A stretch of DNA of 64,000 nt from a virus. The translations under genes were made by a program, and so were the position numbers. The notes under the pieces are model-generated. The model was given only the letters and a program-made list of their open reading frames with translations. It was not told where the DNA came from and did no database searches. Shown one piece after another: positions 45,696 to 64,000 of the stretch. Positions within the stretch are counted from its first letter, which is position 1; each line of letters starts with the position of its first letter. Location of the stretch: positions 1 through 64,000 of the IMG/VR virus record IMGVR_UViG_3300002835_000070; one strand, given 5' to 3'.

Positions 45696-46262
45696 ATGGA
45701 AACAATTAATGGATTATTAAGAGCGTTGGATAACAAAGTACCCGCTTCAATGGCTAAAAGAATAGACGGTTTGCAAAAACTGAATGTGAAATTAGAAACC
45801 GCAAGAAGCGAACACGATGCTAACCCGACAGAGGCTTCTCAAGATGCGTTAGACGAGATTATAGAATTTATCAAAGACACCCAAGAGGATGTTCAAGAAG
45901 ATTTAGAAACTCTTGTAGAGCAAAAAAGAAGTGCTAATTTAAAAGCACAGGGAGAAGAGAAAAAAAGAAGAGAACAAGAGGCTTTAGCGAAAAGAGGAGA
46001 ACAAGAGGCGTTAGCCAAAAGAAGAAAACAACAAGAGGAATTAGCAAATAGAAGAGCAAGTGAAAAAGCCCAAAAAGATGCTGAAGAATTGAGAGAAAAA
46101 GAAGATTTAGAGAAAAAAGAATCGGAAGAACAAGAATTAAAAACAGATGACGAAACTAAAACTGAAAAAAAATCAGGAATTGGTTGGGGAAGTTTGCTTT
46201 TAGGCGGTATTCTACTTGTAGCAACAGGTGGGGCAATAAAGTATTTCGGAAATAAAAAATAA
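45696..46262 (+). CDS. Coiled-coil protein with C-terminal TM anchor
   Basis: Charged helix followed by GIGWGSLLLGGILLVATGGAIKYF. Confidence 0.75.
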   Translation: METINGLLRALDNKVPASMAKRIDGLQKLNVKLETARSEHDANPTEASQDALDEIIEFIKDTQEDVQEDLETLVEQKRSANLKAQGEEKKRREQEALAKRGEQEALAKRRKQQEELANRRASEKAQKDAEELREKEDLEKKESEEQELKTDDETKTEKKSGIGWGSLLLGGILLVATGGAIKYFGNKK

Positions 46263-46429
46263 TGAGCAAAGCGCAAAAAATTTTATTAGTAGTAGGCATT
46301 TTAGGTGTTGCTTTCGGAGGCTTTGTCTTGGCGAAGTATCTTACTCGTAATGTTAGAAAAATTCGAGGTGGAACAGTCACTTTTCAAAAGTTTGACACAC
46401 CGCCAATAGAAGAACCTTTATCTGAATAA
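46262..46429 (+). CDS. Small TM protein (55 aa, absent from the ORF track)
   Basis: MSKAQKILLVVGILGVAFGGFVLAKY...; fills the gap exactly. Confidence 0.7.
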   Translation: MSKAQKILLVVGILGVAFGGFVLAKYLTRNVRKIRGGTVTFQKFDTPPIEEPLSE

Positions 46430-46431
46430 TT

Positions 46432-47130
46432 ATGGGAAAGTACACGACAGTTGCGATTAAAGTGCCTGATATTAATAGAAGTTTTGCACAATCAAATTAT
46501 AAATACTCTAACCCCGATGTTATAAGAGTTAACAATTTACTTATAGATGAAATCAATAAGTCATTTGGAAGCTATGTTACAAAGTGGGGAATTGAATTTG
46601 AAATTGATGATTCAATAATTATAGGTTTTATTGCTACCGAAAGTGGCGGTATTAATTCTCCTCCGAATAAATATGATGCGACAGGTCTTATGCAGATGAC
46701 TCCAAACACAGTTTGGGAAATTTTGGCAAAATGGCAAGTTATGGTCAATTCCCCGCTATCTACTAAAGCAAAATCTTTTTTCAATAAAGCGATTCCGTCA
46801 AGTAAAAATTTCAACGCTAATGTACTTCCGAGTTCGGCAGTAAAAAGCGAAATACGCAAAGCATTACAAAATAATCCTGAATTCAATATAGCAATTGGTA
46901 CTGCTAATTTAAGATGGCTTTTAGAAGCATTTAAAGAGGGCAACGTTGCGAGTATGAATAAAGTTATGGTTTCCTACAATGCGGGTTACTATGCTATGAG
47001 AAATAAGGTAAAAGGTGCTTTAACAACTCAACAATTAATCAATAATAAATCTATTCCTTTGGAAAGCAGAGGTTATTTATTAAAAATGTTAGGCGTAAAC
47101 GGTTTTTTAGACCTATGGTTTAAAAAGTAA
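46432..47130 (+). CDS. Lytic transglycosylase (SLT family)
   Basis: IATESGG, ATGLMQM, SYNAG motifs. Confidence 0.9.
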   Translation: MGKYTTVAIKVPDINRSFAQSNYKYSNPDVIRVNNLLIDEINKSFGSYVTKWGIEFEIDDSIIIGFIATESGGINSPPNKYDATGLMQMTPNTVWEILAKWQVMVNSPLSTKAKSFFNKAIPSSKNFNANVLPSSAVKSEIRKALQNNPEFNIAIGTANLRWLLEAFKEGNVASMNKVMVSYNAGYYAMRNKVKGALTTQQLINNKSIPLESRGYLLKMLGVNGFLDLWFKK

Positions 47131-47214
47131 TTATAAACAAAAACAAGAAACAAAACAACAACCTAATTAAGTAATGATAAATTTAAAAAATATAAACAAT
47201 TAAATATTAAAATT

Positions 47215-47469
47215 ATGAAAAAAGGTTATTTAGTAGGTGGTTTAGCGATTGTAGGTGCAATAGCATTATTTATGTATTTAAAACCAAAAAACAAAGCAAA
47301 TTCAGAGGGTTTTTACGGGGCAAATGGTAAATTAACTACCAAAGGAGGTTCGACTTCAAAAGTTCAATTACAATGTAAAAGACCTAATGGAAGTTATTAC
47401 TTACAACCATCAGGAGCAACTGCTTGTGTGTATGGTAGTGACACACCAATTCGTTACGTTGAAAATTAA
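47215..47469 (+). CDS. N-anchored small membrane protein (GGLA-SEGF family)
   Basis: TM helix, KPKNKANSEGFYGANG, Cys-pair tail. Confidence 0.8.
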   Translation: MKKGYLVGGLAIVGAIALFMYLKPKNKANSEGFYGANGKLTTKGGSTSKVQLQCKRPNGSYYLQPSGATACVYGSDTPIRYVEN

Positions 47470-47480
47470 AAACAAAAAAA

Positions 47481-47612
47481 ATGGAAAAGAAATATATCGT
47501 AGGAGGTTTAGCCGTAGTAGGTGCTTTAGCATTATTAGCTTGGTATTTTACACCAAAGAAAAGTTCAGATAAATTCTTGAACGCAACAGGTGGTTGCGGT
47601 TGTGGGGCTTAA
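47481..47612 (+). CDS. 43-aa member of the GGLA family (absent from the ORF track)
   Basis: MEKKYIVGGLAVVGALALLAWYFTPKKSSDKFLNATGGCGCGA. Confidence 0.75.
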   Translation: MEKKYIVGGLAVVGALALLAWYFTPKKSSDKFLNATGGCGCGA

Positions 47613-47614
47613 TA

Positions 47615-47908
47615 ATGGCTTATAAAATTTTACCATATTCAAAAGCACAGGCGGATAAGTTGGGGGTTGAAATAAAGCCCTCAACAAACTCTGTTAAAAA
47701 AATTGATATTTTTAAAAATGGTAAAAAAATTGCTACAATAGGGGCTTCGGGTATGAATGATTACCCGACCTATTTGGAGAAAGAAAAAAAAGGGTATTTC
47801 CCGAAAGGATATGCTAAAGAAAGACGTAGATTGTATAAGCAACGCCACGAAAAAGACCGTCATAAAACAGGGTCGAATGGTTGGTATGCAGATAAAATAT
47901 TGTGGTAA
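47615..47908 (+). CDS. DUF5754-like basic viral protein
   Basis: KK...IGASGMNDY...RRRLYKQRH...GWYADKILW; real start probably the ATG at 47615. Confidence 0.65.
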   Translation: MAYKILPYSKAQADKLGVEIKPSTNSVKKIDIFKNGKKIATIGASGMNDYPTYLEKEKKGYFPKGYAKERRRLYKQRHEKDRHKTGSNGWYADKILW

Positions 47909-48529
47909 ATGGCTCTAATATACGAAAATAAAGTTCCTGCTTCATACAGGATACCTTTTGTTAACAAGGTAAACGAAATTGCACCAAGAATAGGGGTTGA
48001 CCCTAATTGGTTAATGGCAATTATGTACTTTGAGAGCGCAGGTGGTTTTAGCCCGTCTATTACAAATTCATTAGGGTATGTAGGCTTAATTCAATTTGGA
48101 GCATCGGCAAGAAAAACTTTAGGTGTTACAAAAGAGCAACTAAAGGCAATGACCGCAGTAGAGCAATTAGATTACGTTGAAAAATATTTTAATTTATATA
48201 AGGGTAAATACAAAACTTATATAGACACATATTTTGCAGTATTTTTTCCTTTAGCAATTGGAAAGCCCGATGATTGGGTAATTCAAGGCGGAGGTCTTAC
48301 GGCAAAACAAATTTACGATGCGAACCCCGCTTTCCGAAATGTAAAAGACGGAAAATTGAGAGTTTGGGAAGTTAAAAAAACAATGTTAGAAAAACTGCCG
48401 AGCCAATGGCTACAAGACGGAAGTTTTAGTTTGGCAGTTAAAGCATACAAGAATTATATTGCAGTTGGTATATTATCAATATTGGCAGGATTAACATTAT
48501 ATTATTATGGTAGAAGCAGTACAAAATAG
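47909..48529 (+). CDS. Lysozyme-like/lytic transglycosylase with C-terminal TM anchor
   Basis: LMAIMYFES...GLIQF...EQLDYVEKYF; hydrophobic C-terminus. Confidence 0.85.
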   Translation: MALIYENKVPASYRIPFVNKVNEIAPRIGVDPNWLMAIMYFESAGGFSPSITNSLGYVGLIQFGASARKTLGVTKEQLKAMTAVEQLDYVEKYFNLYKGKYKTYIDTYFAVFFPLAIGKPDDWVIQGGGLTAKQIYDANPAFRNVKDGKLRVWEVKKTMLEKLPSQWLQDGSFSLAVKAYKNYIAVGILSILAGLTLYYYGRSSTK

Positions 48530-48701
48530 TCAGACGGGAACACCAAATGAAGAAATGGATAAGACGATAAAAAAAGACGTAAATGCTCAAATACATCAGC
48601 ATTTATCTACAATTTTTGTTGTAGTAGGCATTATATCTTTTACATTGGGTGCAATTGTAAATTGGTACACAATTCAAAGAATTAAAGGCGGAAAAATATA
48701 A
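48507..48701 (+). CDS. Small TM protein
   Basis: STIFVVVGIISFTLGAIVNWY helix. Confidence 0.7.
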   Translation: MVEAVQNSQTGTPNEEMDKTIKKDVNAQIHQHLSTIFVVVGIISFTLGAIVNWYTIQRIKGGKI

Positions 48702-49129
48702 TGAAAATATTTGGACAAGTTTTAGATACAAATGATGAACCAATGGCATTGGCGAATATTACTATTGTTACAGGCGTAAATGCTAATACTATGGGTACTC
48801 ACGGTGATTTAGATGGTAATTTTGTTTTAGAAAGTCCTAATATTGAAAGCGATTCCCGATTTAAGGTTTCTTATGTAGGATATGTATCTCAATTTTTCAA
48901 TACAAATGAATTACAAGGTAAAAAAGTAAAATTAAAAGACGATGTGGAAGAATTGCAAGAAGTTGTAATTACGGCAGGTTCAAAACCGTCTAATTCTTCT
49001 ACTAAAACTAATGTAGTACAATCGAGTAAAAAAAAGTTTGTTCAGCACTTACAAGACCATAAATTCGTTTATGCGGGATTAGGAGGATTGGCAGGAATAA
49101 TATTAATTGCGAGAGCATTTAAAAGATAA
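48701..49129 (+). CDS. Carboxypeptidase-regulatory-like (SusC N-terminal type) domain with C-terminal TM
   Basis: GQVLD..DEPMALANI...GTHGDLDGNF...VSYVGY...LQEVVIT. Confidence 0.85.
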   Translation: MKIFGQVLDTNDEPMALANITIVTGVNANTMGTHGDLDGNFVLESPNIESDSRFKVSYVGYVSQFFNTNELQGKKVKLKDDVEELQEVVITAGSKPSNSSTKTNVVQSSKKKFVQHLQDHKFVYAGLGGLAGIILIARAFKR

Positions 49130-52895: not shown

Positions 52896-53543
52896 ATGGA
52901 ATTTAACGATTTAACATACGGAAATCCAACTGTTGAGGATTTAGTTTACATTCAGGGAAATGGATTGACAGACGACCTTTTTGAAACATTAAAGTCCAAG
53001 TTGTCATATCCAAAAAATGATTCTGAATTAGTTAAGGACGAACTTAACGAAATTGTAGATGCTTTGGCAACAATGGCTCAACCTGAAAATCAAAACTATT
53101 TAAAAAGATACAAGTCTTACGATAGGAATTTAATTCAGTCGCTTTCAGCAATATTTAAACAAAGAAATATTGATGTTGAACAATTGTGTAAAGACGTAGT
53201 TATGGATATGCAAAATTTGATTTATAAATTAAAATTTTACTATCAAAGACCACGACCAAAGCAAATTGCGCAATATTACAAGTTGAAATTATTTCCATAC
53301 AAAAGTTTTTCAGCACACACGCCATCGTTCCCTTGCGGACATTGCGTACAAGCAATTGTAATGCTTAACGTAATAGGAAATAAAAACCCTACTGAATATC
53401 CGTTCTGTAAAGAACTAATTGAAGATATTGCATACAGTAGAGTATATTTAGGACATCATTTTCCAAGCGATAATGACGGAGCAAGAGAAATTGGTAAAGC
53501 GATTTTAAAACACCCTGAATTTGCGAAAAAATACGGCATATAA
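52896..53543 (+). CDS. PAP2/haloperoxidase-superfamily phosphatase
   Basis: KFYYQRPRP, PSFPCGH, SRVYLGHHFPSD. Confidence 0.88.
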   Translation: MEFNDLTYGNPTVEDLVYIQGNGLTDDLFETLKSKLSYPKNDSELVKDELNEIVDALATMAQPENQNYLKRYKSYDRNLIQSLSAIFKQRNIDVEQLCKDVVMDMQNLIYKLKFYYQRPRPKQIAQYYKLKLFPYKSFSAHTPSFPCGHCVQAIVMLNVIGNKNPTEYPFCKELIEDIAYSRVYLGHHFPSDNDGAREIGKAILKHPEFAKKYGI

Positions 53544-53980: not shown

Positions 53981-54412
53981 ATGACTCAAGAAACTAACGA
54001 TGTATCAAAGGTATTAAAGGAGTTGGATAAAACCATTCAGGTAATAGGAACAGAAAAGCTAATTGAGATTCTAAAATACTCACGGCTTAATATGGCAAAC
54101 ATAAACGAGGAACAAATTAACAGGTCTTTAGAAATAATTAAAGTTGTTTGTGATGAATTTAATATTTCATTAGTTGAGTTCTTCGACAGAAAGCGTAAAA
54201 CCAATAGAAGAACTGCAATAGGCATTTGCGCCTATCTAATTCAAAAAGAATTAAATCTTGACAATTCAAACATATCATACATTTTGAAAAAACCTGACGA
54301 AGTAATATCTTTGTACAAACAAGAAATAATCAGATTGAACTCAAACCATCCTCAAGACATACAGGTATTGGAAAAAATAAAAATAATAAGTGAAACTATA
54401 AAATTACAATAA
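53981..54412 (+). CDS. DnaA C-terminal-like HTH protein
   Basis: IIKVVCDEFNIS...RKR...AIGICAYL...ISYIL. Confidence 0.6.
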   Translation: MTQETNDVSKVLKELDKTIQVIGTEKLIEILKYSRLNMANINEEQINRSLEIIKVVCDEFNISLVEFFDRKRKTNRRTAIGICAYLIQKELNLDNSNISYILKKPDEVISLYKQEIIRLNSNHPQDIQVLEKIKIISETIKLQ

Positions 54413-55560: not shown

Positions 55561-55677
55561 ATGGCAAGTAATATAGCGAATAATAAAAACAACAATAACA
55601 ATCCTATATGGGTTGTTATGTTGTTATTCGTAATTTGGCTTATATTAATTTTTTTAAGACTTAAACAAACTTTATAA
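55561..55677 (+). CDS. 38-aa TM protein (absent from the ORF track)
   Basis: MASNIANNKNNNNNPIWVVMLLFVIWLILIFLRLKQTL; ends 1 nt before the ATPase start. Confidence 0.6.
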   Translation: MASNIANNKNNNNNPIWVVMLLFVIWLILIFLRLKQTL

Positions 55678-55678
55678 T

Positions 55679-56503
55679 ATGGAAGAAAGAGAACCGAAAT
55701 TATTAGTTGCAGTTGGACGTAAAGGGTGCGGTAAAACTTTTTCAACAAGAAAAATGCTTACAAGTTATGTTCAAGGCAATATTTCAAAAGGTATTGCCCC
55801 AAGAAGAGTTTTAATATTTGATGTAAATGATGAGTTTGAGGACATAAAAGCATTGGCTTTAAAAGATGTGGCTTTATTTTCTATGCACCCAAAAATAGAG
55901 ATAAGAAGAATTAGACCATTCAACAAGGACGGAAGACCTATGGGTATTAATGAAATGCAAGAAACATTATTTAAAATAGTTAATAATTTTAGAGGAGGAA
56001 TGCTTTTGTTAGAGGATTTAAACGGTTACGTTGGGGATTATATCCCACAGGATTTAATAGGTAAAATAGTAAGAGCAAGACACGCAGATTTGGACATAAT
56101 TACGCATTTTCAATCAATAGGAAGAATATCGCCTAAAATTTGGCAGAACGTCAACGCTATTCGTTTTCACAAAAATACAGATTCAGTTTTAAAACATTCC
56201 AAGAAATTTGATAATTTTTCAGAAATGTTTTTATTAGTGGAGGCTTATGTAAATTCCGAGTATCATTTAGGAAATGAAAGAATACAAGTTTGGGTTGATA
56301 CAGAAAACGAAAAAATTAAAATACCAAAAGAAAATATAGCTAAATTTGAAAAAATTGTAGAATTGTACTTAATGGAAAACCATAAAAGAATACTTTCCCC
56401 TTTATTAAATAAAAATATTTTCTTTAAAAATAATAAACCATTAACAATGCAAGAAGTTTTAAAAATAAAAAAAGCAGAAATGTTAAAATATTATTTAGAT
56501 TAA
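55679..56503 (+). CDS. A32/P9-like FtsK-HerA genome packaging ATPase
   Basis: Walker A GRKGCGKT, LIFD, Walker B LLLED, arginine-finger motif RARH, then hhhxQ. Confidence 0.78.
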   Translation: MEEREPKLLVAVGRKGCGKTFSTRKMLTSYVQGNISKGIAPRRVLIFDVNDEFEDIKALALKDVALFSMHPKIEIRRIRPFNKDGRPMGINEMQETLFKIVNNFRGGMLLLEDLNGYVGDYIPQDLIGKIVRARHADLDIITHFQSIGRISPKIWQNVNAIRFHKNTDSVLKHSKKFDNFSEMFLLVEAYVNSEYHLGNERIQVWVDTENEKIKIPKENIAKFEKIVELYLMENHKRILSPLLNKNIFFKNNKPLTMQEVLKIKKAEMLKYYLD

Positions 56504-56517: not shown

Positions 56518-57111
56518 TTATAAATATTTATTTGTAATTCCGTTTTGTTTTTCAAAATCAACTCTTTTTTGGTAAGCCTCCTCTTCAGTTTTAAACATTC
56601 CGAACCGAACAGATTTTCCATTAAACTGAATTGAACTTCTCCATTTATTATCTCTTTTAAAATATGAAACGCCAATATATTTACTTGTGCAGTTTGAATT
56701 TTTAACCCTATGACAGCTATTTTCCCTATTGTTTACCCATTCTAAATTTGAAATTTTATTATTAAGTTTATTTCCGTCAATATGGTTTACTTGCGGATTA
56801 TTTTTTGGGTTATTAATAAACGAAATAGCAATCAGCCTATGTATTTTTTTTGTAATTTCAAGTGCATTTTTACAAAAACCTACTTCCCAATAACCCCTTT
56901 TACTTATATGTGGTTTTTTTATTAATACCTTATAAATGCACTTTTTCCCACTTATAATAAGTGTTTTCTCTAAAGATTTTACTCTTCCAAGATTCGATAT
57001 TTGATAATACCCCTCGTAATCAGGAACATCTTTCCATTCTTCAACACGAGTAACACCATTATCATCTATATAGACAATATCTTCTAAACTTAAATCTTTG
57101 TAGTAATCCAT
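56518..57111 (-). CDS. NUMOD4-HNH-AP2 homing endonuclease
   Basis: EEWKDVPDYEGYYQISNLGRVKS, HRLIA, VNHIDGNKLNN, SKYIGVS...KWRSSI. Confidence 0.93.
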   Translation of the reverse strand: MDYYKDLSLEDIVYIDDNGVTRVEEWKDVPDYEGYYQISNLGRVKSLEKTLIISGKKCIYKVLIKKPHISKRGYWEVGFCKNALEITKKIHRLIAISFINNPKNNPQVNHIDGNKLNNKISNLEWVNNRENSCHRVKNSNCTSKYIGVSYFKRDNKWRSSIQFNGKSVRFGMFKTEEEAYQKRVDFEKQNGITNKYL

Positions 57112-57362: not shown

Positions 57363-57605
57363 ATGAAAAAAAGTAGATTTAGTAAGTTATGTCTAAAAGA
57401 CCTTTCACGGGGTGTGATAATGACAGTAGGTACAACTTTTGTAGGGTTGTGTAGCACAAGTGTAGTTTCGGGAATATTTCCTGCGGTTGCAGATTTTATT
57501 AATATGGGTAAGGTAGGTTTGCTTTCAGGAGCAGTTTATTTAGTTAAAAACTTCCTTACAAACTCAAAAGGCGAATTTTTAAAACAAGAAGAAGATGTCG
57601 TATAG
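57363..57605 (+). CDS. Putative holin
   Basis: Two hydrophobic segments, YLVKNFLTNSKG tail, overlaps the endolysin start. Confidence 0.65.
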   Translation: MKKSRFSKLCLKDLSRGVIMTVGTTFVGLCSTSVVSGIFPAVADFINMGKVGLLSGAVYLVKNFLTNSKGEFLKQEEDVV

Positions 57606-58122
57606 TTATTTAAGCAAAGAGGCTTCGCCTCAAATTTTAGTTCAAGCAAAATCCCTTTTAGGAACTAAAGAAATTGTAGGCGTTATTCATAATAAAACTA
57701 TTATGAGTTGGGCTAAAGGTTTAGGTCTTGAAAAAATATATACCTCTGACGAAATCGCTTGGTGCGGTTTATTTATGTCAGAAGTTTGTAAAAAAGCGGG
57801 GGTAGAAACCAACTTAACCCCTAAAGATTCATTGTGGGCTTTAAATTGGAGTAAATTTGGAACAAAGCAATCAGTAGCGATGCTTGGGGATATTCTTACT
57901 TTTAAAAGAAACGGAGGCGGACACGTTGGTATTTATGTTGGGGAAGACGATACTTGCTATCATATTCTTGGGGGAAACCAATCTAATATGGTTTGCGTTA
58001 CTCGAATTGAAAAATCAAGAGTTAACAGTATTAGACGTACAAGTTGGAAGTCAAAACAACCAAGTAATGTAAGGGTAATAAAACTCGAAAGTAACGGTAT
58101 AATTTCTAAAGACGAGAGTTAA
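57595..58122 (+). CDS. NlpC/P60-CHAP-type cell wall hydrolase (TIGR02594-like endolysin)
   Basis: DEIAWCGLF, GDILTFKRNGGGHVG, ILGGNQSN. Confidence 0.88.
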   Translation: MSYSYLSKEASPQILVQAKSLLGTKEIVGVIHNKTIMSWAKGLGLEKIYTSDEIAWCGLFMSEVCKKAGVETNLTPKDSLWALNWSKFGTKQSVAMLGDILTFKRNGGGHVGIYVGEDDTCYHILGGNQSNMVCVTRIEKSRVNSIRRTSWKSKQPSNVRVIKLESNGIISKDES

Positions 58123-58847: not shown

Positions 58848-58877
58848 AAAGCGCACCAATACGGTGCGTTTTTTTTT
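58848..58877 (+). terminator. Intrinsic terminator after the lysis cassette
   Basis: GCGCACC-AATAC-GGTGCGT plus T tract. Confidence 0.88.
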
Positions 58878-59046
58878 GCTCATTACCTTTACGTTGAGAA
58901 TAATTAAATAGTTTGTGAATTATTATTTAATGATAAAGTAGGCGTTAAATAAATTTGATGTGCTATTATGCTATAAATTTGGCTTTGATATTATTTCTGT
59001 AAATTAATATCATTAAAAATAAGTTTAACAAAAAAATCATTCTGAA

Positions 59047-59178
59047 ATGAAAAACGAAATTGTTCCTTTATTGAAAAGCGTTGCCGTTGTAGTTGTAGGT
59101 GTGTTAGTTGCTAACTATGTTCAAAAAACATTGTTGACTAAAGCAGTTGTCGCTCCCGCTTCTTCTTCAGCAGTATAA
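59047..59178 (+). CDS. 43-aa TM protein immediately upstream of the capsid gene (absent from the ORF track)
   Basis: MKNEIVPLLKSVAVVVVGVLVANYVQKTLL...; TAAATTTG promoter-like elements at 58950 and 58974. Confidence 0.7.
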   Translation: MKNEIVPLLKSVAVVVVGVLVANYVQKTLLTKAVVAPASSSAV

Positions 59179-59232
59179 TTAGGTGTCAAAACCGAGTAAA
59201 AAAATTAGTAAATAATATTAAATTAAATTAAA

Positions 59233-59928
59233 ATGTCAAACGTAAGAAGATATTTAAGCAATGCACGTCAAAGTGCAATGGAATCTTTCTCAAATGCTGA
59301 CGGATTCATCGACCAAGACCTGTCATTCACAGGAGATGATTTCTTTAGAGCAGACGGAGGAATGGGGCAACAAGATATTCAAACATCTCAACCCTACATT
59401 ATCAACGTTACTTCTACATCAGGAGCAGCGATTGCTAACTTTGCTATATTAGGTTCATACCAATATATCAATAACACAGGATTCGTTAACGGTTCGTTAA
59501 CAATCGGTCCAGTGACTGTGAGTTCAGGTATTCCTGACATCACTTACCAAGAAATGTTATACCAATTTATGAATAATCCTTATTCTGTTGGTTTAACTTA
59601 CATCCAATCGGCTACTACTAACCAAGTTCTACAAACTTTGTCAGTAAACACGAGAGATGCGAATGGTAACTTGGCACAAAAAACTTTAGTGCCTACAATT
59701 GACCCATATCAGCAACAAACGAATATCGTTGCAATGAAGTATGCTTACCGTATTGATGGTTTCACAAAAATCATCATTGCTCAAATTTTAGCAACTGCTA
59801 CATTGTCATTATACTTCTATCCTGCTGATAACATCAACCTTGCAAGAGCATTGGGTGGTCAACCTGTAAGCAGACAATTCGGAACACCTCCTGTAACTAA
59901 TGGACAAACCATCAAGTTAAGAGCGTAA
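59233..59928 (+). CDS. Candidate major capsid protein (single vertical jelly-roll-like)
   Basis: About 150-aa beta-strand-rich core; apparent enrichment in TTC/ATC/AAC codons; own terminator; near the A32-like ATPase and among TM proteins. The fold is inferred. Confidence 0.7.
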   Translation: MSNVRRYLSNARQSAMESFSNADGFIDQDLSFTGDDFFRADGGMGQQDIQTSQPYIINVTSTSGAAIANFAILGSYQYINNTGFVNGSLTIGPVTVSSGIPDITYQEMLYQFMNNPYSVGLTYIQSATTNQVLQTLSVNTRDANGNLAQKTLVPTIDPYQQQTNIVAMKYAYRIDGFTKIIIAQILATATLSLYFYPADNINLARALGGQPVSRQFGTPPVTNGQTIKLRA

Positions 59929-59966
59929 TTATCAGTGATGATATAACGAATTAATGTATAATTTAG

Positions 59967-60006
59967 AAAAAGAGCAAGTTTGATTTATTTCTACTTGCTC
60001 TTTTTT
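59967..60006 (+). terminator. Intrinsic terminator after the capsid gene
   Basis: AAAAAGAGCAAGT...ACTTGCTCTTTTTT. Confidence 0.85.
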
Positions 60007-60023
60007 GCTTAAAACAAATAACT

Positions 60024-60461
60024 ATGAACGTATATGAATATGTTGCGGATTCAAATCCAAGAGTAGCAGAACAAATAATGAACTCATTTAATTATGATGT
60101 CGTTAATTCTGCTGATATGGGATTGAGCCAATTAGTTGACAAGGTCGGAGAACCTGCTTTGCAAAAAGTAATGGAAAACCACCCTGATAAAGAAATTATT
60201 TTAGAGATGTTCTCTAAAAAAGAGGATAGTAAGGATAGTACTTGCGGTTGCGATAGTTGTAGATACAGAAATCGAAATGGCAATGAAAATTTGAATTATC
60301 TTAATATGACAGGCAGTGGGAATGTTTCTCCTACTAATGTTCCAAATACAACTGCTACTGATTCTACTTCAAATACTCATTTATTGGCAAACCAAACAAA
60401 TGTCATTTTAGTAGTATCTGCATTATTCATAGCAACTGCATTAATTTTAAAAAATAAATAA
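60024..60461 (+). CDS. Putative virion membrane protein (C-terminal TM)
   Basis: HPDKE.I, CGCDSC, YLNMTG, C-terminal hydrophobic helix. Confidence 0.72.
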   Translation: MNVYEYVADSNPRVAEQIMNSFNYDVVNSADMGLSQLVDKVGEPALQKVMENHPDKEIILEMFSKKEDSKDSTCGCDSCRYRNRNGNENLNYLNMTGSGNVSPTNVPNTTATDSTSNTHLLANQTNVILVVSALFIATALILKNK

Positions 60462-60463: not shown

Positions 60464-61138
60464 ATGGCAAATTCAAAAGCGACTCCTCAATTAGGAGCAT
60501 TAACATTAGTATTACTTGTAAGAAATTATAGAAGCCAAATGATTGCTTTATTGGCAAGAAATGGTGTTGCGGTAAAACCTAATGCGTCAGAACAAAATAT
60601 AGCCAATTTAATGGCTAATTTATTAAAAGTATCAAAATCTTTTTTCAAAGATTTAAGCGACTTTTTAACTAACCCTGCGGTAACTAAAGTACTTGCAGAT
60701 GGGGTTGCTAAAGTTTCACAAACTGCTCAATATATGAAAGCAAGTGGAAATGGGTATATGAATTATGAGGGGGAAGAATATGACGATGCTTACTTTGAAG
60801 AAGACCCTATTGACCCTGCATTACCTGTACCGTCAAATACTCCAAAAAAAGGGTTTTGGTCAGATTTGAATTTTGCAGAAATATTAAAAGGAGGTATGAA
60901 TCTTTTTGGTAATTATACAAAAGCACAATCTGATGCTGAAATAGCAAGGCAACGTGCTAAAGTTGCAGAAGCGGGAGGTGGAGCAGTTGTTTTAGACCCA
61001 ACGACAGGGGAAGAAGTTGACCCAAATGACAAACCTGATACGGGATTGGGTACAACTACAATTGTTGTATTAAGTTTAGTAGGCGTTGCATTATTAGGAA
61101 CTGTAATATATTTTATTGCAAGACCTAAAAAATCTTAA
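60464..61138 (+). CDS. Putative virion membrane protein (C-terminal TM)
   Basis: IVVLSLVGVALLGTVIYFI; YMKASG and YMNYEG motifs. Confidence 0.72.
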   Translation: MANSKATPQLGALTLVLLVRNYRSQMIALLARNGVAVKPNASEQNIANLMANLLKVSKSFFKDLSDFLTNPAVTKVLADGVAKVSQTAQYMKASGNGYMNYEGEEYDDAYFEEDPIDPALPVPSNTPKKGFWSDLNFAEILKGGMNLFGNYTKAQSDAEIARQRAKVAEAGGGAVVLDPTTGEEVDPNDKPDTGLGTTTIVVLSLVGVALLGTVIYFIARPKKS

Positions 61139-61149
61139 AAAATAGAGTT

Positions 61150-61374
61150 ATGATTGATGAAAAAATGTTATCCAATATAATTGGGGCTTCTGTTGGAACT
61201 TATCCTAATGAAGTTGCTGACTTCCTTGTGCGTAATAACGTAATTGCACCTGCACCTGAATACACGCTTGACCAATTGGTAGAGGGTGTATTTATAGGTT
61301 TGAATAAAAATCCAACTTTTACTCAAGAATATGGTTCTTGGGTAGAGCAAATTATAACTACATTAACCTTTTAA
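61150..61374 (+). CDS. Hypothetical structural-region protein
   Basis: Operon packing; FLVRNNV resembles LLARNGV of 60464. Confidence 0.65.
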   Translation: MIDEKMLSNIIGASVGTYPNEVADFLVRNNVIAPAPEYTLDQLVEGVFIGLNKNPTFTQEYGSWVEQIITTLTF

Positions 61375-61386
61375 AAATATAATATT

Positions 61387-61692
61387 ATGGCAGGATGGGC
61401 AGATGCTTTAGGAGCAATATTACCAGCTTTTATAACGGTTGGCGGAGGATTAATTTCGCAAAACCAATTAGTGCAACAAGCGCAAGGTCAAGCTAATGAT
61501 GCAAGAGCATTAGCTGAAAAACAATACGAAACTGCATTGGCACAACAAAAGGCGCAAGAATTAGCTTCAATAAATGCAAACAAAAATAAAGTCGTAACTC
61601 CACCAAAGAACAATACTTTACTTTATGTTGGATTAGGTGTAGGCGGTGTTGTTTTAATTGGAGTTGTAATTTTTGCGGTTACGAGAAACTAA
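61387..61692 (+). CDS. Putative virion membrane protein
   Basis: Ala/Gln helix plus C-terminal TM. Confidence 0.72.
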   Translation: MAGWADALGAILPAFITVGGGLISQNQLVQQAQGQANDARALAEKQYETALAQQKAQELASINANKNKVVTPPKNNTLLYVGLGVGGVVLIGVVIFAVTRN

Positions 61693-61711
61693 TTTTTAAT
61701 AAATATTAGAT

Positions 61712-61927
61712 ATGCAAGATTTTTTAGCACAAGCGAAAGACATAGCGAGTAAGGACAAAAGAGAAATTCTTATGGTAACTACTCAAGCATCGGTAAACGG
61801 TGCGGTTACAGGACTTGTTTTGGGTCTTATGATTGGTTATTGGAAAAACAAAAATATTTACATCACAGGTCTTGTAGGTGCTATCATTGGTGGTGTTGCT
61901 ACAAGTATTATAGTTAATAAAAAGTAA
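61712..61927 (+). CDS. Small two-TM Gly-rich protein
   Basis: GAVTGLVLGLMIG...GLVGAIIGG. Confidence 0.72.
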   Translation: MQDFLAQAKDIASKDKREILMVTTQASVNGAVTGLVLGLMIGYWKNKNIYITGLVGAIIGGVATSIIVNKK

Positions 61928-61934
61928 TATAATT

Positions 61935-62870
61935 ATGGATTCATCAAAATTATTGATAGTTGGGGGAGTAGTTTTAGGAGGTTTTTACCTTTTAAATAAA
62001 GGAAAAAAAACAAAAGCAGATGCGGATACAAAAGCATTAGCAGACGCTCAAGCACAAGCATTAGCTTTAGCAATGGCAACCCCAACAATACCCAATCCTG
62101 TCGTTGTAGAGTCAAAATTCTATACTCCTGCCGAAGCAACTAAAAAAGCATTGGAAGTTGTAACTAAATGGATAAGCCTTTTAGATGCTATTCCAAAAGA
62201 AGCGTTGACAGAGGAAAACAAAAATATACTCAATCAAAAGGCTTGGGATGAAAAAGCAAAAAAAGATAAAGCCGAATATGATAAAGCATTAGCACTTGCG
62301 AAATCAAAAAATGAACCTAAATTTACTTTTGGCGATACGAATTATTGGACGGCTAATGAAGAGGATGTTAGAAACGGAAGTTGGGTTAAAGTATTGTCGG
62401 CAAATGTTTGGCAACCAAACAATATTATTTCTTATTCTAATTCATTTAAAATTAGAGATGGCGACAGAATGTTTGAAATTAGTCGTGCGAATCTTATGTT
62501 TTCAAATGCCCCTAAAAATTTAGGAGATTATGTAAAGAGAGTGAAACAAATAGATTTTTCAAATGTTTACGATGCTTTAAAAGTACAATTTGCAGAACTT
62601 CCAAAAACAGATGTTGATAGGTTAGTAATATTATTGCCTAAATATCTTTTGGTAGTAAATGATGATTTTAAATATTTTGAAAATTATTTACAGCAAAATC
62701 CATTTACAATAGAAGAACAGTTGTATTTAAAAGATGTTAGTATTGATAGTTTATTCAATCCTAAAAAAACCGTAACACCTCAATTCTACGGTAATCCGAT
62801 TATACAAAACGCTACATCATTTGCAAATGCGGTACAAAACGCTACATCAATAGCAAATGCGGTTAGGTAA
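61935..62870 (+). CDS. N-anchored membrane protein
   Basis: LLIVGGVVLGGFYLL; 30-bp tandem duplication at the C-terminus (QNATS.ANAV x2). Confidence 0.72.
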   Translation: MDSSKLLIVGGVVLGGFYLLNKGKKTKADADTKALADAQAQALALAMATPTIPNPVVVESKFYTPAEATKKALEVVTKWISLLDAIPKEALTEENKNILNQKAWDEKAKKDKAEYDKALALAKSKNEPKFTFGDTNYWTANEEDVRNGSWVKVLSANVWQPNNIISYSNSFKIRDGDRMFEISRANLMFSNAPKNLGDYVKRVKQIDFSNVYDALKVQFAELPKTDVDRLVILLPKYLLVVNDDFKYFENYLQQNPFTIEEQLYLKDVSIDSLFNPKKTVTPQFYGNPIIQNATSFANAVQNATSIANAVR

Positions 62871-62890
62871 ACAATAGATAAAAAAAGATT

Positions 62891-63001
62891 ATGAAAAAGC
62901 AAAATATAATAATTGGTTTAGTTGGATTAGTAATTTCTCTTGGAGTAGTTTACGGATATACCTATGTAATTGGAAAATCTTGGAAAGCAAGTCAAAAATA
63001 A
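62891..63001 (+). CDS. 36-aa TM protein (absent from the ORF track)
   Basis: MKKQNIIIGLVGLVISLGVVYGYTYVIGKSWKASQK. Confidence 0.65.
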   Translation: MKKQNIIIGLVGLVISLGVVYGYTYVIGKSWKASQK

Positions 63002-63021
63002 TTAATTAAAAAATTAATAAA

Positions 63022-63462
63022 ATGGAAATTTTAAAAGACAAAAAAATATTAGTAGGTGGTTTGGCAGTAATAGGAGGTATAGCACTCGTTGCTTACTTGT
63101 TAAAGCAAAAAACACCAACAAGAAATTCAGAGGGGTTTTTTAATGCGGGTGGGAGAATTTTACCAATAAAAGAACCAATATTACCAAAAAACCAAGAGGT
63201 TTGTAATTTGCCTAATAATTTTGTTAGACAGGTAGTTACTAAAACAGGAGTAATTAAAAATTTTTGCGGTAGATACGATAGGGTTATAGCTATGACACCA
63301 ACAGGTAAAGGATTTCAATACAGGTTGCGACCTGAAATTCCGAGCGCAACTTTTATAAATGGTGGTTTTGTAAATTCAAACGGAACGGGAATTATTACAA
63401 CATATCAAATAATTAGTAGTTCTGATTATGAATCCGCATTTATTTATGGACAAAATTGTTAA
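63022..63462 (+). CDS. N-anchored membrane protein (GGLA-SEGF family)
   Basis: TM helix, RNSEGFFNAGG, Cys-containing domain. Confidence 0.78.
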   Translation: MEILKDKKILVGGLAVIGGIALVAYLLKQKTPTRNSEGFFNAGGRILPIKEPILPKNQEVCNLPNNFVRQVVTKTGVIKNFCGRYDRVIAMTPTGKGFQYRLRPEIPSATFINGGFVNSNGTGIITTYQIISSSDYESAFIYGQNC

Positions 63463-63489
63463 AAAACATTAATCATTAATTCAAAAAAA

Positions 63490-63837
63490 ATGGAAAAGAA
63501 GTATTTAGTAGGAGGTTTAGCAGTAGTAGGTGCAATAGCATTGTTTATGTATTTAAAACCAAAAAACAAAGCAAATTCAGAGGGTTTCTTTAATATGAGT
63601 GGGTTTAATCCTCAAACAAATCCATTTATACCAAATTCTTTTACAAGACAAGATAGATTTTGTAAAGTTTGTGTGCAGTATGATAAAATACAATCGCCTA
63701 AAGGAGGGTTTATGTATTTAAAAAAACTGTACAACCCTAACCAATCTATTAGCGAAGCATTTAGTATCACAGAACAAGAATACACATCTGCGTTTACTAA
63801 AAACGGACTTTGTAAAGTAAATCCACCAACAAAATAA
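63490..63837 (+). CDS. N-anchored membrane protein (GGLA-SEGF family)
   Basis: TM helix, ANSEGFFNMSG, Cys-containing domain related to that of 63022. Confidence 0.78.
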   Translation: MEKKYLVGGLAVVGAIALFMYLKPKNKANSEGFFNMSGFNPQTNPFIPNSFTRQDRFCKVCVQYDKIQSPKGGFMYLKKLYNPNQSISEAFSITEQEYTSAFTKNGLCKVNPPTK

Positions 63838-63865
63838 AACATTAACAATTAAAATTATAATAAAA

Positions 63866-64000
63866 ATGGAAAAAAAGTATATCATCGGAGGTTTAGCAGT
63901 AGTAGGTGCAATAGCATTATTTATGTATTTAAAACCAAAAAACAAAGCAAATTCAGAGGGTTTCTATGGTGCAAATGGTAGATTAACTACAAAAGGAGGT
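63866..64000 (+). CDS. GGLA-SEGF family protein, truncated by the window end
   Basis: MEKKYIIGGLAVVGAIALFMYLKPKNKANSEGFYGANGRLTTKGG, nearly identical to the N-terminus of 47215. Confidence 0.8.
   Translation, partial: MEKKYIIGGLAVVGAIALFMYLKPKNKANSEGFYGANGRLTTKGG

What the first reader, a model, noticed from the sequence alone, without database searches (positions are those of the whole stretch)
45696..64000. Morphogenesis module of an unusually large tailless, membrane-containing Bacteroidota virus
Seen: an A32-like ATPase with a tiny TM gene directly upstream, a 231-aa beta-rich capsid candidate preceded by a tiny TM gene, about 25 small single-TM proteins, and no terminase, portal or tail gene in 64 kb. 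Known: this combination typifies internal-membrane jelly-roll viruses (PRD1, PM2, sphaerolipoviruses; Flavobacterium phages FLiP and phiCjT23 also have membranes), whose genomes are far smaller than this window. Inference: a large-genome lineage (at least 64 kb) using a single-jelly-roll capsid.
Basis: partly seen in the sequence, partly recalled or inferred. Interest (0 to 1): 0.8.

Follow-up and report, generated by a model that had tools for sequence, protein, structure and literature searches.

The report
Large tailless-type freshwater phage assembly module
This stretch is the particle-building gene block of a ~100-kb lake-water virus of Bacteroidota that has the DNA-packaging motor, jelly-roll coat-type protein and many small membrane proteins of tailless, membrane-containing viruses and no detectable tailed-phage genes, making it several times larger than any described bacterial virus of that type.

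Summary

- **Contig:** the window is the first 64 kb of a 102,228-bp IMG/VR virus record that CheckV rates complete.
- **ATPase (55679-56503):** its predicted structure best matches B204, the genome-packaging NTPase of Sulfolobus turreted icosahedral virus (Z 17.9; Foldseek ranks 1-15). No terminase appears among the matches.
- **231-aa protein (59233-59928):** it models confidently as one eight-stranded jelly roll behind a disordered N-terminal leader. It is the most conserved gene of the lineage (844 clusters at 50% identity). Terminators bracket it.
- **Limits of the fold evidence:** Z is 6.4 at best, so the fold is generic. Capsid role and vertical orientation are inferred.
- **Membrane genes:** 21-22 small transmembrane ORFs lie in the flagged stretch and about 41 lie between 45.7 and 77.7 kb, past the window end. 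A PAP2 lipid phosphatase and an invariant HExxH zincin are core genes.
- **Tailed-phage genes:** no terminase, portal or HK97 capsid was found in five complete genomes (77-102 kb) or in a 132-kb relative.
- **Host:** Bacteroidota, from missing Shine-Dalgarno sites and one Sediminibacterium bin.
- **Earlier notes:** the scan flagged relatives on other DNA before.

No paper describing the lineage was found.

The parts
46432..47130 (+). Lytic transglycosylase (SLT domain), 232 aa, probably a virion-associated cell-wall enzyme
   Evidence: Pfam SLT, E 5e-12. A weak PHROG endolysin hit.
47909..48529 (+). Second lysozyme/SLT-like enzyme, 206 aa
   Evidence: phrog_4928 at 2e-31 and phrog_196 'baseplate hub' at 2e-30, the latter through its lysozyme-like part. 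Pfam SLT, E 2.6e-4. Found in 15 related loci.
47215..47612 (+). Two small N-terminal-TM proteins (84 and 43 aa), members of a paralog family that also includes 63022-63462, 63490-63837 and 63866-64117
   Evidence: BLASTP 46-84% identity over the N-terminal ~38-84 residues. TM helices. An F-x-[NG]-A-x-G motif follows the TM helix.
48701..49129 (+). CarboxypepD_reg-like beta-sandwich protein with a C-terminal TM anchor, 142 aa, a core gene
   Evidence: Pfam CarbopepD_reg_2, E 1.2e-10. TM at residues 122-140. Found in 30 related loci.
52896..53543 (+). PAP2-family lipid phosphatase, 215 aa, a core gene; a candidate for making or remodelling the virion membrane
   Evidence: Pfam PAP2, E 1.6e-12. 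Found in 36 related loci at median 60% identity.
53981..54412 (+). 143-aa DNA-binding HTH protein (DnaA C-terminal-like), a core gene in the packaging cluster
   Evidence: Pfam Bac_DnaA_C, E 5e-6, below the curated cut-off. Found in 30 related loci.
54416..55558 (+). 380-aa acidic, proline-rich core protein just upstream of the ATPase; a scaffold or genome-associated protein, not a jelly roll by sequence character
   Evidence: Found in 37 related loci at median 58% identity. Consensus from alignment A4. No Pfam, PHROG or PDB match. It was not folded.
55561..55677 (+). 38-aa single-TM peptide abutting the ATPase gene
   Evidence: TM at residues 16-34, hydropathy 2.87. Detected in 7 related loci.
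55679..56503 (+). Genome-packaging ATPase of the B204/A32 (FtsK-HerA) type, 274 aa
   Evidence: AF2 model pLDDT 88.9. VIA best match STIV2 B204, Z 17.9, rmsd 2.5 A, 183 residues aligned; then DndH, VirB4, HerA and TrwB (Z 16.1-12.4); FtsK motor domain Z 10.7 at rank 35, below RecA-type ATPases. Foldseek ranks 1-15 are all B204, E 2.4e-8. Atlas neighbours carry Zot, DUF87 and Pox_A32 labels. Found in 40 related loci. Walker A and B invariant.
56518..57111 (-). HNH homing endonuclease (NUMOD4 + HNH_3 + AP2), the only minus-strand gene in the module; a mobile insert
   Evidence: Pfam hits at 3.9e-13, 6.9e-9 and 2.7e-4.
57595..58122 (+). Weak NlpC/P60-like cell-wall peptidase, 175 aa
   Evidence: Pfam NLPC_P60, E 1.6e-4, just under the cut-off.
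58848..58872 (+). Intrinsic terminator closing the upstream operon
   Evidence: 10-bp stem with 5 GC pairs and a T-run.
58950..58981 (+). Two TAAATTTG boxes (Bacteroidota -7 type) in the 175-nt spacer before the coat-gene unit
   Evidence: The motif is not enriched across the window (113 seen against 110 expected), so this is only suggestive.
59047..59178 (+). 43-aa single-TM peptide co-transcribed with the jelly-roll gene
   Evidence: TM at residues 4-22. Found in 25 related loci. One RNA-library contig spans it together with the next gene.
59233..59928 (+). 231-aa single jelly-roll protein, the candidate major capsid protein: N-terminal helix 2-17, disordered leader 20-48 carrying FSNADG and FFRADGG motifs, eight-stranded sandwich 49-213, C-terminal arm
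   Evidence: AF2 pLDDT 87.5. Jelly-roll matches at Z 5-6.4. The most conserved gene of the lineage: 42 loci, median 78% identity. 1,451 close homologs and 844 clusters at 50% identity.
59971..60008 (+). Hairpin plus T-run terminator after the jelly-roll gene
   Evidence: Read directly from the sequence.
60024..60461 (+). 145-aa core protein with a C-terminal TM anchor, directly after the coat gene; a candidate capsid-membrane linker
   Evidence: TM at residues 120-138. Found in 40 related loci at median 47% identity. No family hit.
60464..64000 (+). Further small TM and unknown proteins (224, 74, 101, 71, 311, 36, 146 and 115 aa). The module runs on past the window end to about contig 77.7 kb and includes the HExxH zincin at contig 65177-65962.
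   Evidence: TM scan. Conservation profile. Zincin motif invariant in 24 sequences.
17225..18418 (+). Outside the finding: 397-aa tandem duplicate of the jelly-roll domain, an accessory of this genome
   Evidence: 38% and 34% identity to the 231-aa protein, E 1e-33 and 2e-32. Not found as a tandem in five relatives.
6650..7174 (+). Outside the finding: 174-aa single jelly-roll paralog
   Evidence: BLASTP to the 231-aa protein, E 5e-16.
14648..15112 (+). Outside the finding: 154-aa single jelly-roll paralog, next to a GT1 glycosyltransferase
   Evidence: BLASTP, E 5e-11. GT1 hit.

Best explanation
The stretch is the central part of the virion-assembly module of a roughly 100-kb double-stranded DNA phage of freshwater Bacteroidota. 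The phage builds a tailless particle of the PRD1/STIV/sphaerolipovirus kind, not a head-tail particle.

Proposed mechanism, all inferred unless marked otherwise:
- The highly expressed 231-aa single jelly-roll protein forms the outer shell.
- Its N-terminal helix and leader face an inner lipid vesicle. That vesicle is studded with the roughly 40 small virus-encoded TM proteins.
- A virus PAP2 lipid phosphatase helps make or remodel that membrane.
- A second conserved ~155-aa jelly-roll paralog (contig 97286-97750), which lies with an adhesin-like protein and a beta-propeller, would serve as the vertex (penton) or second coat protein.
- The 274-aa B204/A32-type ATPase sits at a special vertex with its small TM partner. 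It pumps the genome into the preformed membrane-lined shell. The adjacent HTH protein and the 380-aa acidic protein assist it.
- A conserved HExxH zincin trims leaders at the aromatic-x-N/G-A-x-G sites.
- The SLT and NlpC/P60 enzymes open the cell wall at entry or exit.

Shown here: the ATPase fold class, the jelly-roll fold, gene conservation, the TM richness, and the absence of detectable tailed-phage hallmarks.
For: ATPase:
- Best structural match by two methods is the packaging NTPase B204 of STIV/STIV2 (Z 17.9, rmsd 2.5 A, 183 of 204 residues; Foldseek ranks 1-15, E 2.4e-8).
- DndH, VirB4, HerA and TrwB follow (Z 16.1-12.4); FtsK is weaker (Z 10.7, rank 35, below RecA-type ATPases). No terminase is in the top 50.
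- Atlas neighbours carry Zot, DUF87 and Pox_A32 labels.

Jelly roll:
- Confident model with only jelly-roll matches, among them chains of PR772, FLiP, phiCjT23, PM2 and PBCV-1 virions.
- It is the most conserved gene across 42 related loci, median 78% identity against 57% for the ATPase.
- The family is large: 1,451 close homologs and 844 clusters at 50% identity.
- It forms its own unit between two terminators.
- An RNA-library contig spans exactly this unit at word depth 175, against 2.6-7.6 for the other listed contigs. This is a weak hint, because the tool warns that depth cannot rank genes.
- A second jelly-roll paralog has orthologs in 4 of 5 relatives.

Membrane:
- 21-22 TM ORFs in the stretch and about 41 up to 77.7 kb.
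- PAP2 is a core gene in 36 loci.

No head-tail genes:
-.
- Targeted searches of five complete genomes, with positive controls.
- The flanks of the 132-kb relative.

Virus identity:
- IMG/VR record rated 100% complete by CheckV.
- Phage-type replication, recombination and anti-defence genes.

Host:
- Shine-Dalgarno sites depleted, leaders A-rich.
- One Sediminibacterium bin.
Against: - No particle has been seen, so shape, membrane and capsid composition are all inferred from genes.
- The jelly-roll matches are weak (Z at most 6.4). Carbohydrate-binding modules (AlgX, CBM35), TNF/C1q and nucleoplasmin cores score as well as capsid proteins. Three extra paralogs sit among sugar-modifying genes, which would fit a lectin role.
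- Halopanivirales coat proteins did not appear in the match lists.
- The two conserved jelly-roll genes lie 38 kb apart, not beside the ATPase as in known single-jelly-roll viruses.
- Automatic labels for related Atlas clusters say Uroviricota, the tailed phages.
- Absence of HK97, portal and terminase rests on HMM searches. Several ORFs of 350-590 aa remain unassigned.
- Other structural proteins were not folded, so a double jelly roll elsewhere is not excluded.
Confidence: 0.6

Rival explanations
1. It is a virus with the B204-type packaging motor, but the 231-aa jelly roll is not the shell protein. It would be a lectin-like spike, vertex or membrane-surface protein. The true capsid protein is then one of the unfolded ORFs, possibly a double jelly roll, or the particle is enveloped or pleomorphic and not icosahedral.
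For: - Fold matches at Z 5-6 include carbohydrate-binding modules, TNF/C1q and fibre tips as often as capsids.
- Jelly-roll paralogs lie beside glycosyltransferase and sugar-modifying genes.
- About 41 TM proteins is far more than PRD1-type viruses carry.
- Four membrane-anchorable fibre-like repeat proteins lie at contig 77.7-90.8 kb.
Against: - The protein is the most conserved gene of the lineage, at median 78% identity. Receptor-binding proteins usually vary most, and the fibre-like genes here do so: they are absent from two relatives.
- It has its own terminator-bracketed unit and the deepest RNA-library contig.
- The other ORFs of capsid-like size in the module (311, 403 and 244 aa) occur in only 4-7 of 44 loci.
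Confidence: 0.2
2. It is a tailed phage (Caudoviricetes) whose HK97-fold capsid, portal and terminase are too divergent for profile searches. The B204-like ATPase would then do another job.
For: - Atlas clusters of the ATPase and the zincin are labelled mostly Uroviricota.
- The early genes are typical of tailed phages: RecT, Phg_2220_C, crAss001_48-related, polyvalent proteins.
- One 160-aa ORF hits 'tail fiber' PHROGs.
- ORFs of 356-586 aa remain unassigned.
Against: - No hit to Terminase_6N, Phage_capsid or Phage_portal at E <= 0.1 in five complete genomes, while controls were found.
- No head, tail or packaging PHROG above noise for any large ORF.
- Large terminases are among the easiest phage proteins to detect.
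- The unassigned 586-, 470- and 529-aa genes look like a MoxR-AAA/beta-propeller conflict system.
- The 132-kb relative adds only early-type genes.
Confidence: 0.1
3. It is not a virus but a large plasmid-like or conjugative element. Its ATPase would be a secretion or transfer motor, and its TM proteins would form a transfer channel.
For: - VirB4, TrwB and HerA are the next-best ATPase matches.
- SLT enzymes, many small TM proteins and polyvalent proteins also occur in conjugative elements (PMC5512222).
Against: - B204 clearly outscores VirB4 and TrwB (Z 17.9 against 15.4 and 12.4), and the protein has B204's small single-domain size.
- No relaxase, VirB4-size ATPase, coupling protein or other conjugation family appeared in any scan.
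- The record is in IMG/VR with 100% CheckV completeness.
- Homing endonucleases, RecT and Acb2/Tad1-type genes are phage-like.
Confidence: 0.05

Closest known systems
STIV/STIV2 (Turriviridae) packaging NTPase B204 and the A32-like ATPases of PRD1-adenovirus-lineage viruses
   Same: The ATPase has the same compact single-domain FtsK-HerA-type fold (Z 17.9, rmsd 2.5 A over 183 of 204 residues). Size is similar (274 against about 204-230 aa). A small TM gene sits beside it, as with PRD1 P20/P22 (the PRD1 point is from my own knowledge).
   Different: Only 14-19% sequence identity. An extra roughly 60-residue helical C-terminal part (217-274) is not covered by the match. The host is a bacterium, not an archaeon. 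The genome is about 6 times larger than STIV's.
Halopanivirales (Sphaerolipoviridae, Simuloviridae, Matshushitaviridae: SH1, HHIV-2, HCIV-1, P23-77)
   Same: Tailless, internal-membrane design with single jelly-roll coat proteins and an A32-type ATPase (PMC12643093, PMC12642351). This lineage likewise keeps two jelly-roll paralogs of unequal size, about 231 and about 155 aa.
   Different: Their genomes are 16-31 kb against 77 to at least 132 kb here. Their ATPase and two coat genes form one block, whereas here the two jelly-roll genes lie 38 kb apart. No sequence match and no listed structural match to their coat proteins. Their hosts are halophilic archaea and Thermus.
PRD1 (Tectiviridae) and PM2 (Corticoviridae)
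   Same: A morphogenesis module with many small membrane proteins, a virion-type lytic transglycosylase, a packaging ATPase and jelly-roll structural proteins (reviewed in PMC6356626). PR772 and PM2 virion chains are among the jelly-roll matches. The pairing of a jelly-roll paralog with a beta-propeller recalls the PRD1 vertex proteins P31 and P2 (from my own knowledge).
   Different: Their genomes are 10-15 kb and their major coat protein is a double jelly roll. PRD1 uses a protein-primed polymerase and inverted terminal repeats. Neither was found here.
[quoted passage not shown]
   Same: A tailless, membrane-containing phage of a Bacteroidota-related host, with PRD1-type architecture, two coat-protein types and an orphan genome (PMC6356626).
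   Different: About 44 kb and hypersaline (size from my own knowledge). tblastn of the ATPase and the jelly roll against the phage collection found no match.
FLiP and phiCjT23 (Finnlakeviridae), membrane-containing phages of freshwater Flavobacterium
   Same: Same host phylum and habitat, and an internal membrane (PMC7654751). Their capsid chains appear among the jelly-roll matches at Z 5.3.
   Different: About 9-kb single-stranded DNA genomes, a double jelly-roll coat and no packaging ATPase of this kind.

Membership tests
Tailless jelly-roll / A32-ATPase viruses (PRD1-adenovirus lineage in the broad sense) | Genome-packaging ATPase of the A32/B204 (FtsK-HerA) class | tested here: met
   B204 is the top structural match by VIA (Z 17.9) and Foldseek (ranks 1-15).
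Tailless jelly-roll / A32-ATPase viruses (PRD1-adenovirus lineage in the broad sense) | Major capsid protein with a jelly-roll fold | tested here: inconclusive
   The most conserved structural-module protein is a confident jelly roll. Its role as the shell protein is inferred, not shown.
Tailless jelly-roll / A32-ATPase viruses (PRD1-adenovirus lineage in the broad sense) | Jelly-roll strands perpendicular to the capsid surface (vertical orientation) | not testable with these tools
   This needs a capsid or capsomer structure.
Tailless jelly-roll / A32-ATPase viruses (PRD1-adenovirus lineage in the broad sense) | Internal lipid membrane | not testable with these tools
   Only indirect evidence: about 41 small TM ORFs and a core PAP2 gene.
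Bamfordvirae (double jelly-roll viruses) | [quoted passage not shown] | tested here: inconclusive
   The core protein holds one jelly roll. The tandem 397-aa paralog is not conserved. Other structural ORFs were not folded.
Halopanivirales (single jelly-roll viruses) | Two single jelly-roll coat proteins | tested here: inconclusive
   Two paralogs (about 231 and about 155 aa) are conserved in 4 of 5 relatives. Whether both are coat proteins is unknown, and no match to VP16/VP17-type chains was listed.
Halopanivirales (single jelly-roll viruses) | Conserved gene block of ATPase, small coat protein and large coat protein | tested here: not met
   The ATPase is at 55.7 kb, the large paralog at 59.2 kb and the small conserved paralog at 97.3 kb.
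Tectiviridae (PRD1-like) | Protein-primed family-B DNA polymerase and inverted terminal repeats | tested here: not met
   No inverted or direct terminal repeat. No DNA polymerase family in any Pfam scan. Replication genes are Phg_2220_C, RecT and DUF3127.
Caudoviricetes (tailed phages) | Large terminase | tested here: not met
   No Terminase_6N at E <= 0.1 in five complete genomes, while controls were found. Only a 5e-4 P-loop-level PHROG hit to the B204-like ATPase. A very divergent form is not excluded.
Caudoviricetes (tailed phages) | HK97-fold major capsid protein and portal | tested here: not met
   No Phage_capsid or Phage_portal at E <= 0.1 in five genomes. No head or tail PHROG for any large ORF. 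This is HMM-level absence only; the ORFs were not folded.

The most novel reading that the evidence does not exclude
This is a widespread, undescribed high-rank lineage of 77 to over 130-kb tailless, internal-membrane phages of freshwater (and, by earlier scan notes, marine) Bacteroidota. The shell would be built from a new single jelly-roll family. Maturation would use a virion zincin that cuts a shared leader motif. The particle would carry giant polyvalent effector polyproteins. If so, membrane-containing jelly-roll viruses of bacteria reach giant-virus-like complexity. This genome's tandem jelly-roll paralog would also be a living example of the single-to-double jelly-roll duplication step.
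Probability: 0.45. Interest if true: 0.9.

Novelty: new variant of a known kind. Interest (0 to 1): 0.78.

Why it matters
**Size gap.** Described membrane-containing, tailless phages have genomes of about 10-44 kb. Viruses of this architecture with 100-kb genomes are known only from eukaryotes. A common lake-water lineage of 77 to at least 132 kb would remove that gap, and it would mean that part of the 'unclassified' or default 'tailed' dsDNA phage sequence in aquatic viromes is mislabelled.

**Testable handles for open questions:**
- How a B204-type motor fills a membrane-lined shell with 100 kb of DNA.
- How a virus builds a membrane carrying about 40 of its own proteins and its own lipid phosphatase.
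- Whether single jelly-roll shells can scale to large triangulation numbers.
- How jelly-roll duplication arises.

**Practical use.** The 231-aa protein family (844 clusters at 50% identity) is a ready marker for finding these viruses in metagenomes.

Tried and rejected
**Sequence searches that found nothing useful**
- tblastn of the ATPase and the jelly roll against 50,697 phage records: no match.
- Sequence and profile searches of the ATPase, the 380-aa protein, the jelly-roll family and the zincin against PDB sequences: only P-loop-level or chance hits.

**Candidate alternative capsid proteins**
- The 380-aa protein beside the ATPase was considered as a double jelly-roll capsid. I rejected it on sequence character: acidic, proline-rich, helical-looking consensus. 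It was not folded.
- The tandem 397-aa jelly roll was considered as a core double jelly-roll capsid. I rejected it because five relatives lack it.

**Fold searches**
- Halopanivirales coat proteins did not appear in the wide or the Foldseek-guided fold lists. This does not exclude a relationship.

**Misleading labels**
- The 'tail fiber' PHROG hits traced to a single 160-aa ORF. The 'baseplate hub' hit traced to a lysozyme-like domain.

**Host and promoter evidence**
- The 132-kb Sediminibacterium-bin contig was tested as a possible prophage with host flanks. The flanks are viral, so it gives no integration-based host proof.
- TAnnTTTG is not enriched across the window, 113 seen against 110 expected.

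**Tools and steps not available**
- An ATPase phylogeny was not built, because reference ATPase sequences could not be obtained as tool-given records.

**Literature**
- Six full-text searches found no description of this lineage.

Full report
**Setting.** The window is the first 64 kb of a single 102,228-bp contig. It is held as an IMG/VR virus record, classed linear, with a CheckV completeness estimate of 100%. GC is about 31%. Nearly every gene is on the + strand. No tRNA and no direct or inverted terminal repeat was found.

**Checking the observation.**
- A hydropathy scan of a non-overlapping ORF tiling finds 21-22 ORFs with a predicted TM helix between 45696 and 64000.
- These include the 38-aa peptide that ends one base before the ATPase start and the 43-aa peptide before the 231-aa gene.
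- The TM-rich run continues past the window end to about 77.7 kb, about 41 ORFs in all.
- Pfam and PHROGs scans assign two SLT/lysozyme-like enzymes (46432, 47909), a PAP2 lipid phosphatase (52896), a DnaA_C-like HTH protein (53981), a CarboxypepD_reg-like TM-anchored sandwich (48701), a weak NlpC/P60 (57595) and a minus-strand HNH homing endonuclease (56518-57111).
- Nothing matched terminase, portal, HK97 capsid or tail parts.

**The rest of the genome.**
- The remaining 38 kb was fetched and scanned.
- It holds more small TM proteins and four large, internally repetitive paralogs of 1078, 852, 1451 and 536 aa.
- It also holds a sulfotransferase, an HNH/cytidylyltransferase, a beta-propeller protein and a short minus-strand cluster that probably includes a TnpB.
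- The first 19 kb encodes phage-type functions: Phg_2220_C/DnaD-like initiator, RecT, DUF3127, a crAss001_48-related protein, an Acb2/Tad1 hairpin domain and HNH endonucleases. It also carries an unusually large set of sugar-modifying enzymes.
- Coordinates 19.4-45.5 kb encode polyvalent-protein domains (Zeta toxin, ART-PolyVal, DUF5661, LPD11, DUF2958) and a MoxR-type AAA. Such proteins are thought to be delivered with the DNA of phages and conjugative elements (PMC5512222).
- The two 'tail fiber' PHROG hits fall on one 160-aa ORF at contig 95753-96235.

**The ATPase.**
- By sequence it gives only P-loop-level hits.
- An alignment of 33 orthologs shows invariant Walker A and B motifs, followed by an R-H-x-D-x-D-I-I-x-H-F-Q-S...N segment of FtsK-HerA character.
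- The AlphaFold model is confident, pLDDT 88.9.
- Its best match in a search of 48,161 PDB representatives is B204, the genome-packaging NTPase of STIV2. The match has Z 17.9, rmsd 2.5 A, 183 of 204 residues and 19% identity. Next come DndH-C, VirB4, HerA and TrwB (Z 16.1-12.4); the FtsK motor domain scores lower (Z 10.7, rank 35), below RecA-type ATPases.
- Foldseek ranks 1-15 are all B204 entries, best E 2.4e-8.
- Zot scores Z 11.0. No terminase is listed.
- ESM-Atlas neighbours carry scattered Zot, DUF87 and Pox_A32 labels.
- The 'A32-like' call is therefore structurally supported.

**The 231-aa protein.**
- It has 1,451 close homologs, with the top 120 clusters at least 79% identical and all 'hypothetical'.
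- A profile search finds 844 clusters at 50% identity.
- With a 97-sequence alignment, AlphaFold gives pLDDT 87.5. The model has an N-terminal helix (2-17), a disordered leader (20-48) and an eight-stranded sandwich (49-213).
- All fold matches are jelly rolls, but they are weak.
- The VIA wide search gives Z 6.4-5.0 for nepovirus and comovirus capsids, PR772 chain O, the FLiP MCP, a phiCjT23 capsid chain, the PBCV-1, EhV and Faustovirus MCPs and PM2. It gives equal scores to AlgX and other carbohydrate-binding modules and to TNF-like domains.
- The fold is thus established, but it does not by itself show a capsid role.

**Support for a major structural role.**
- Across 44 related loci it is the most conserved gene: 42 loci, median 78% identity, against 57% for the ATPase.
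- It forms a two-gene unit with the 43-aa TM peptide, bracketed by terminators at 58848-58872 and about 59971-60008. Two TAAATTTG boxes lie upstream.
- In a freshwater metatranscriptome library, one contig from a roughly 91%-identical relative covers exactly 59043-60227 at word depth 175. Other listed contigs of the region are at 2.6-7.6, and a DNA run is flat at about 5-7.
- The tool warns that contig depth cannot rank genes and that DNA may be present in RNA libraries, so this is only a hint.

**A jelly-roll gene family.**
- The domain occurs six times in five genes: 59233, a tandem pair in 17225-18418 (38% and 34% identity, E about 1e-33), 6650, 14648 and contig 97286.
- In five relatives the tandem is absent.
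- The 154-aa paralog at contig 97286 has its own ortholog in four of five relatives, at 40-71% identity.
- That paralog lies in a conserved block with the adhesin-like 160-aa ORF and the beta-propeller protein.
- I infer a vertex or second-coat role for it. That is speculation, by analogy with PRD1 P31/P5/P2 and with the small and large coat proteins of Halopanivirales.

**Core gene set.** Conserved with the jelly roll and the ATPase are PAP2 (36 loci), the 142- and 143-aa proteins, the 380-aa acidic protein (37 loci), the 145-aa TM-anchored protein (40 loci) and a 261-aa protein at contig 65177-65962 (33 loci).
- The 261-aa protein carries the only HExxH motif in the proteome. H188, E189 and H192 are invariant in 24 sequences.
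- Atlas leads for it are weak metallopeptidase clusters.
- The jelly-roll leader and several TM proteins share an aromatic-x-[NGR]-A-x-G motif, 10 seen against 2.8 expected.
- Aromatic-x-x-G-G is 3.5-fold enriched (90 against 25 ± 5.5), mostly in the polyvalent giants.
- A zincin-based maturation step is a reasonable, untested inference.

**Testing the refutation 'a head-tail module elsewhere'.**
- Terminase_6N, Phage_capsid and Phage_portal gave no hit at E <= 0.1 in this genome or in four relatives of 77-101 kb that CheckV rates complete. The same searches did find these families in control genomes.
- A 132-kb contig binned with a Sediminibacterium MAG is homologous to this genome over about 84 kb.
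- Its 48 kb of flanks encode exonuclease, nucleotidase, methylase, homing endonucleases and HTH proteins. They hold no head-tail genes and no host genes.
- The lineage therefore spans 77 to at least 132 kb. The host link from that contig is by binning only.

**Host and habitat.**
- Shine-Dalgarno-like motifs are depleted upstream of 127 genes (5.5% against a 10% background).
- Leaders are A-rich, 60-72% A at -14 to -10. This is the Bacteroidota pattern, from established knowledge.
- Twenty-one sequencing runs beyond the two likely source samples, all lake or freshwater metagenomes from 2016-2024, hold at least 55% of the sampled words of a 6-kb stretch.

**Comparison with known viruses.**
- The design resembles PRD1/PM2, STIV and the Halopanivirales in four ways: a B204/A32 motor with a small TM partner, jelly-roll structural proteins, many membrane proteins and virion-type wall hydrolases (PMC6356626, PMC12643093, PMC12642351).
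- It differs in five ways. The genome is several-fold larger. There is no protein-primed polymerase and no ITR. The major protein is a single jelly roll with no sequence link to known coat proteins. The two jelly-roll genes are far apart. The genome also carries polyvalent effectors, sugar-modification genes, a lipid phosphatase and a zincin.
- I file it as working like those viruses and as a new variant of that kind, not as a member of any named family.

**Prior notes and literature.**
- Earlier notes of this scan flagged the same kind of virus on other DNA, including an ~80-kb aquatic relative, and noted the HExxH/motif pairing. I used these as leads and tested them here.
- Six full-text searches found no paper describing the lineage.

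**Limits.**
- No particle data exist.
- Only two proteins could be folded.
- No ATPase tree was built.

**Verdict.** Confidence in the tailless, membrane-containing, jelly-roll-shell reading is about 0.6.

Noticed in passing
window 17225-18418: A 397-aa ORF is a clean tandem duplication of the jelly-roll domain (38% and 34% identity to the 231-aa protein). It is absent from five relatives. It is a natural single-to-double jelly-roll duplication, and its function is unknown.
   Followed up: partly
window 19419-45526: A block of giant polyvalent proteins (Zeta toxin, ART-PolyVal x2, DUF5661, LPD11, DUF2958). The aromatic-x-x-G-G motif is 3.5-fold enriched (90 against 25 expected), with 21 copies in the 2267-aa protein and 12 in the 1179-aa protein. 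They look like polyproteins with cleavage sites.
   Followed up: partly
window 28973-33738: A 586-aa protein (weak TrAA12-like beta-propeller hit), a 470-aa MoxR-type AAA and a 529-aa protein sit inside the polyvalent block. GC is locally raised (0.40 at 28-30 kb). This may be a MoxR/vWA/beta-propeller-type conflict system.
   Followed up: no
contig 65177-65962 (L001:2177-2962): A 261-aa core protein carries the only HExxH motif in the proteome. H188, E189 and H192 are invariant in 24 orthologs. It is a candidate virion maturation zincin.
   Followed up: partly
contig 77766-90834 (L001:14766 to L002:8934): Four large paralogs (1078, 852, 1451 and 536 aa; 45-50% identical) are built of internal repeats. 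The 536-aa one has N-terminal hydrophobic segments. They are present in three relatives and absent from the two smallest genomes. They are likely variable fibres or adhesins.
   Followed up: partly
contig 94771-99435 (L002:12871-17535): A conserved block holds a 160-aa adhesin-like ORF (the 'tail fiber' PHROG hits), three small TM proteins, the 154-aa jelly-roll paralog and a 408-aa beta-propeller (SBBP/NHL repeats). It is a possible vertex or receptor-binding complex.
   Followed up: partly
window 846-16388 and contig 91361-94071: An unusually rich set of sugar and sulfate enzymes for a phage: three GT2, GT1, RgpF, PglD/hexapeptide transferase, DegT aminotransferase, APS kinase, sulfotransferase, cytidylyltransferase and methyltransferases. 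This suggests glycosylation or sulfation of virion or host surface.
   Followed up: no
window 1-19050 or contig 88951-102228 (member of alignment A6, not located): One small ORF matches the Acb2/Tad1 hairpin domain (E 2e-9), an anti-CBASS/anti-Thoeris sponge fold. Another matches crAss001_48 (E 1.4e-17).
   Followed up: no
window 56518-57111 (- strand): A NUMOD4/HNH_3/AP2 homing endonuclease is inserted right after the packaging ATPase gene. It is the only minus-strand gene in the module. Several more HNH genes are scattered in the genome.
   Followed up: partly
window 47215-47612 and 63022-64117: A family of small TM proteins whose N-terminal ~38 residues are 46-84% identical while the rest diverges. 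Each has an F-x-[NG]-A-x-G motif just after the TM helix, so it may be a shared cleavable membrane-targeting leader.
   Followed up: partly
contig 99584-100462 (- strand): A 292-aa ORF is probably the TnpB/Cas12f-like (TNB domain) transposase hit seen in the bulk scan. It lies in the short minus-strand cluster at the contig's right end.
   Followed up: no
G001:C9 (L050-L052): A relative on a 132-kb contig carries about 48 kb of extra early-type genes (RNase_T exonuclease, NT5C, DNA methylase, homing endonucleases). Genome size in the lineage therefore varies nearly two-fold through accessory regions.
   Followed up: partly
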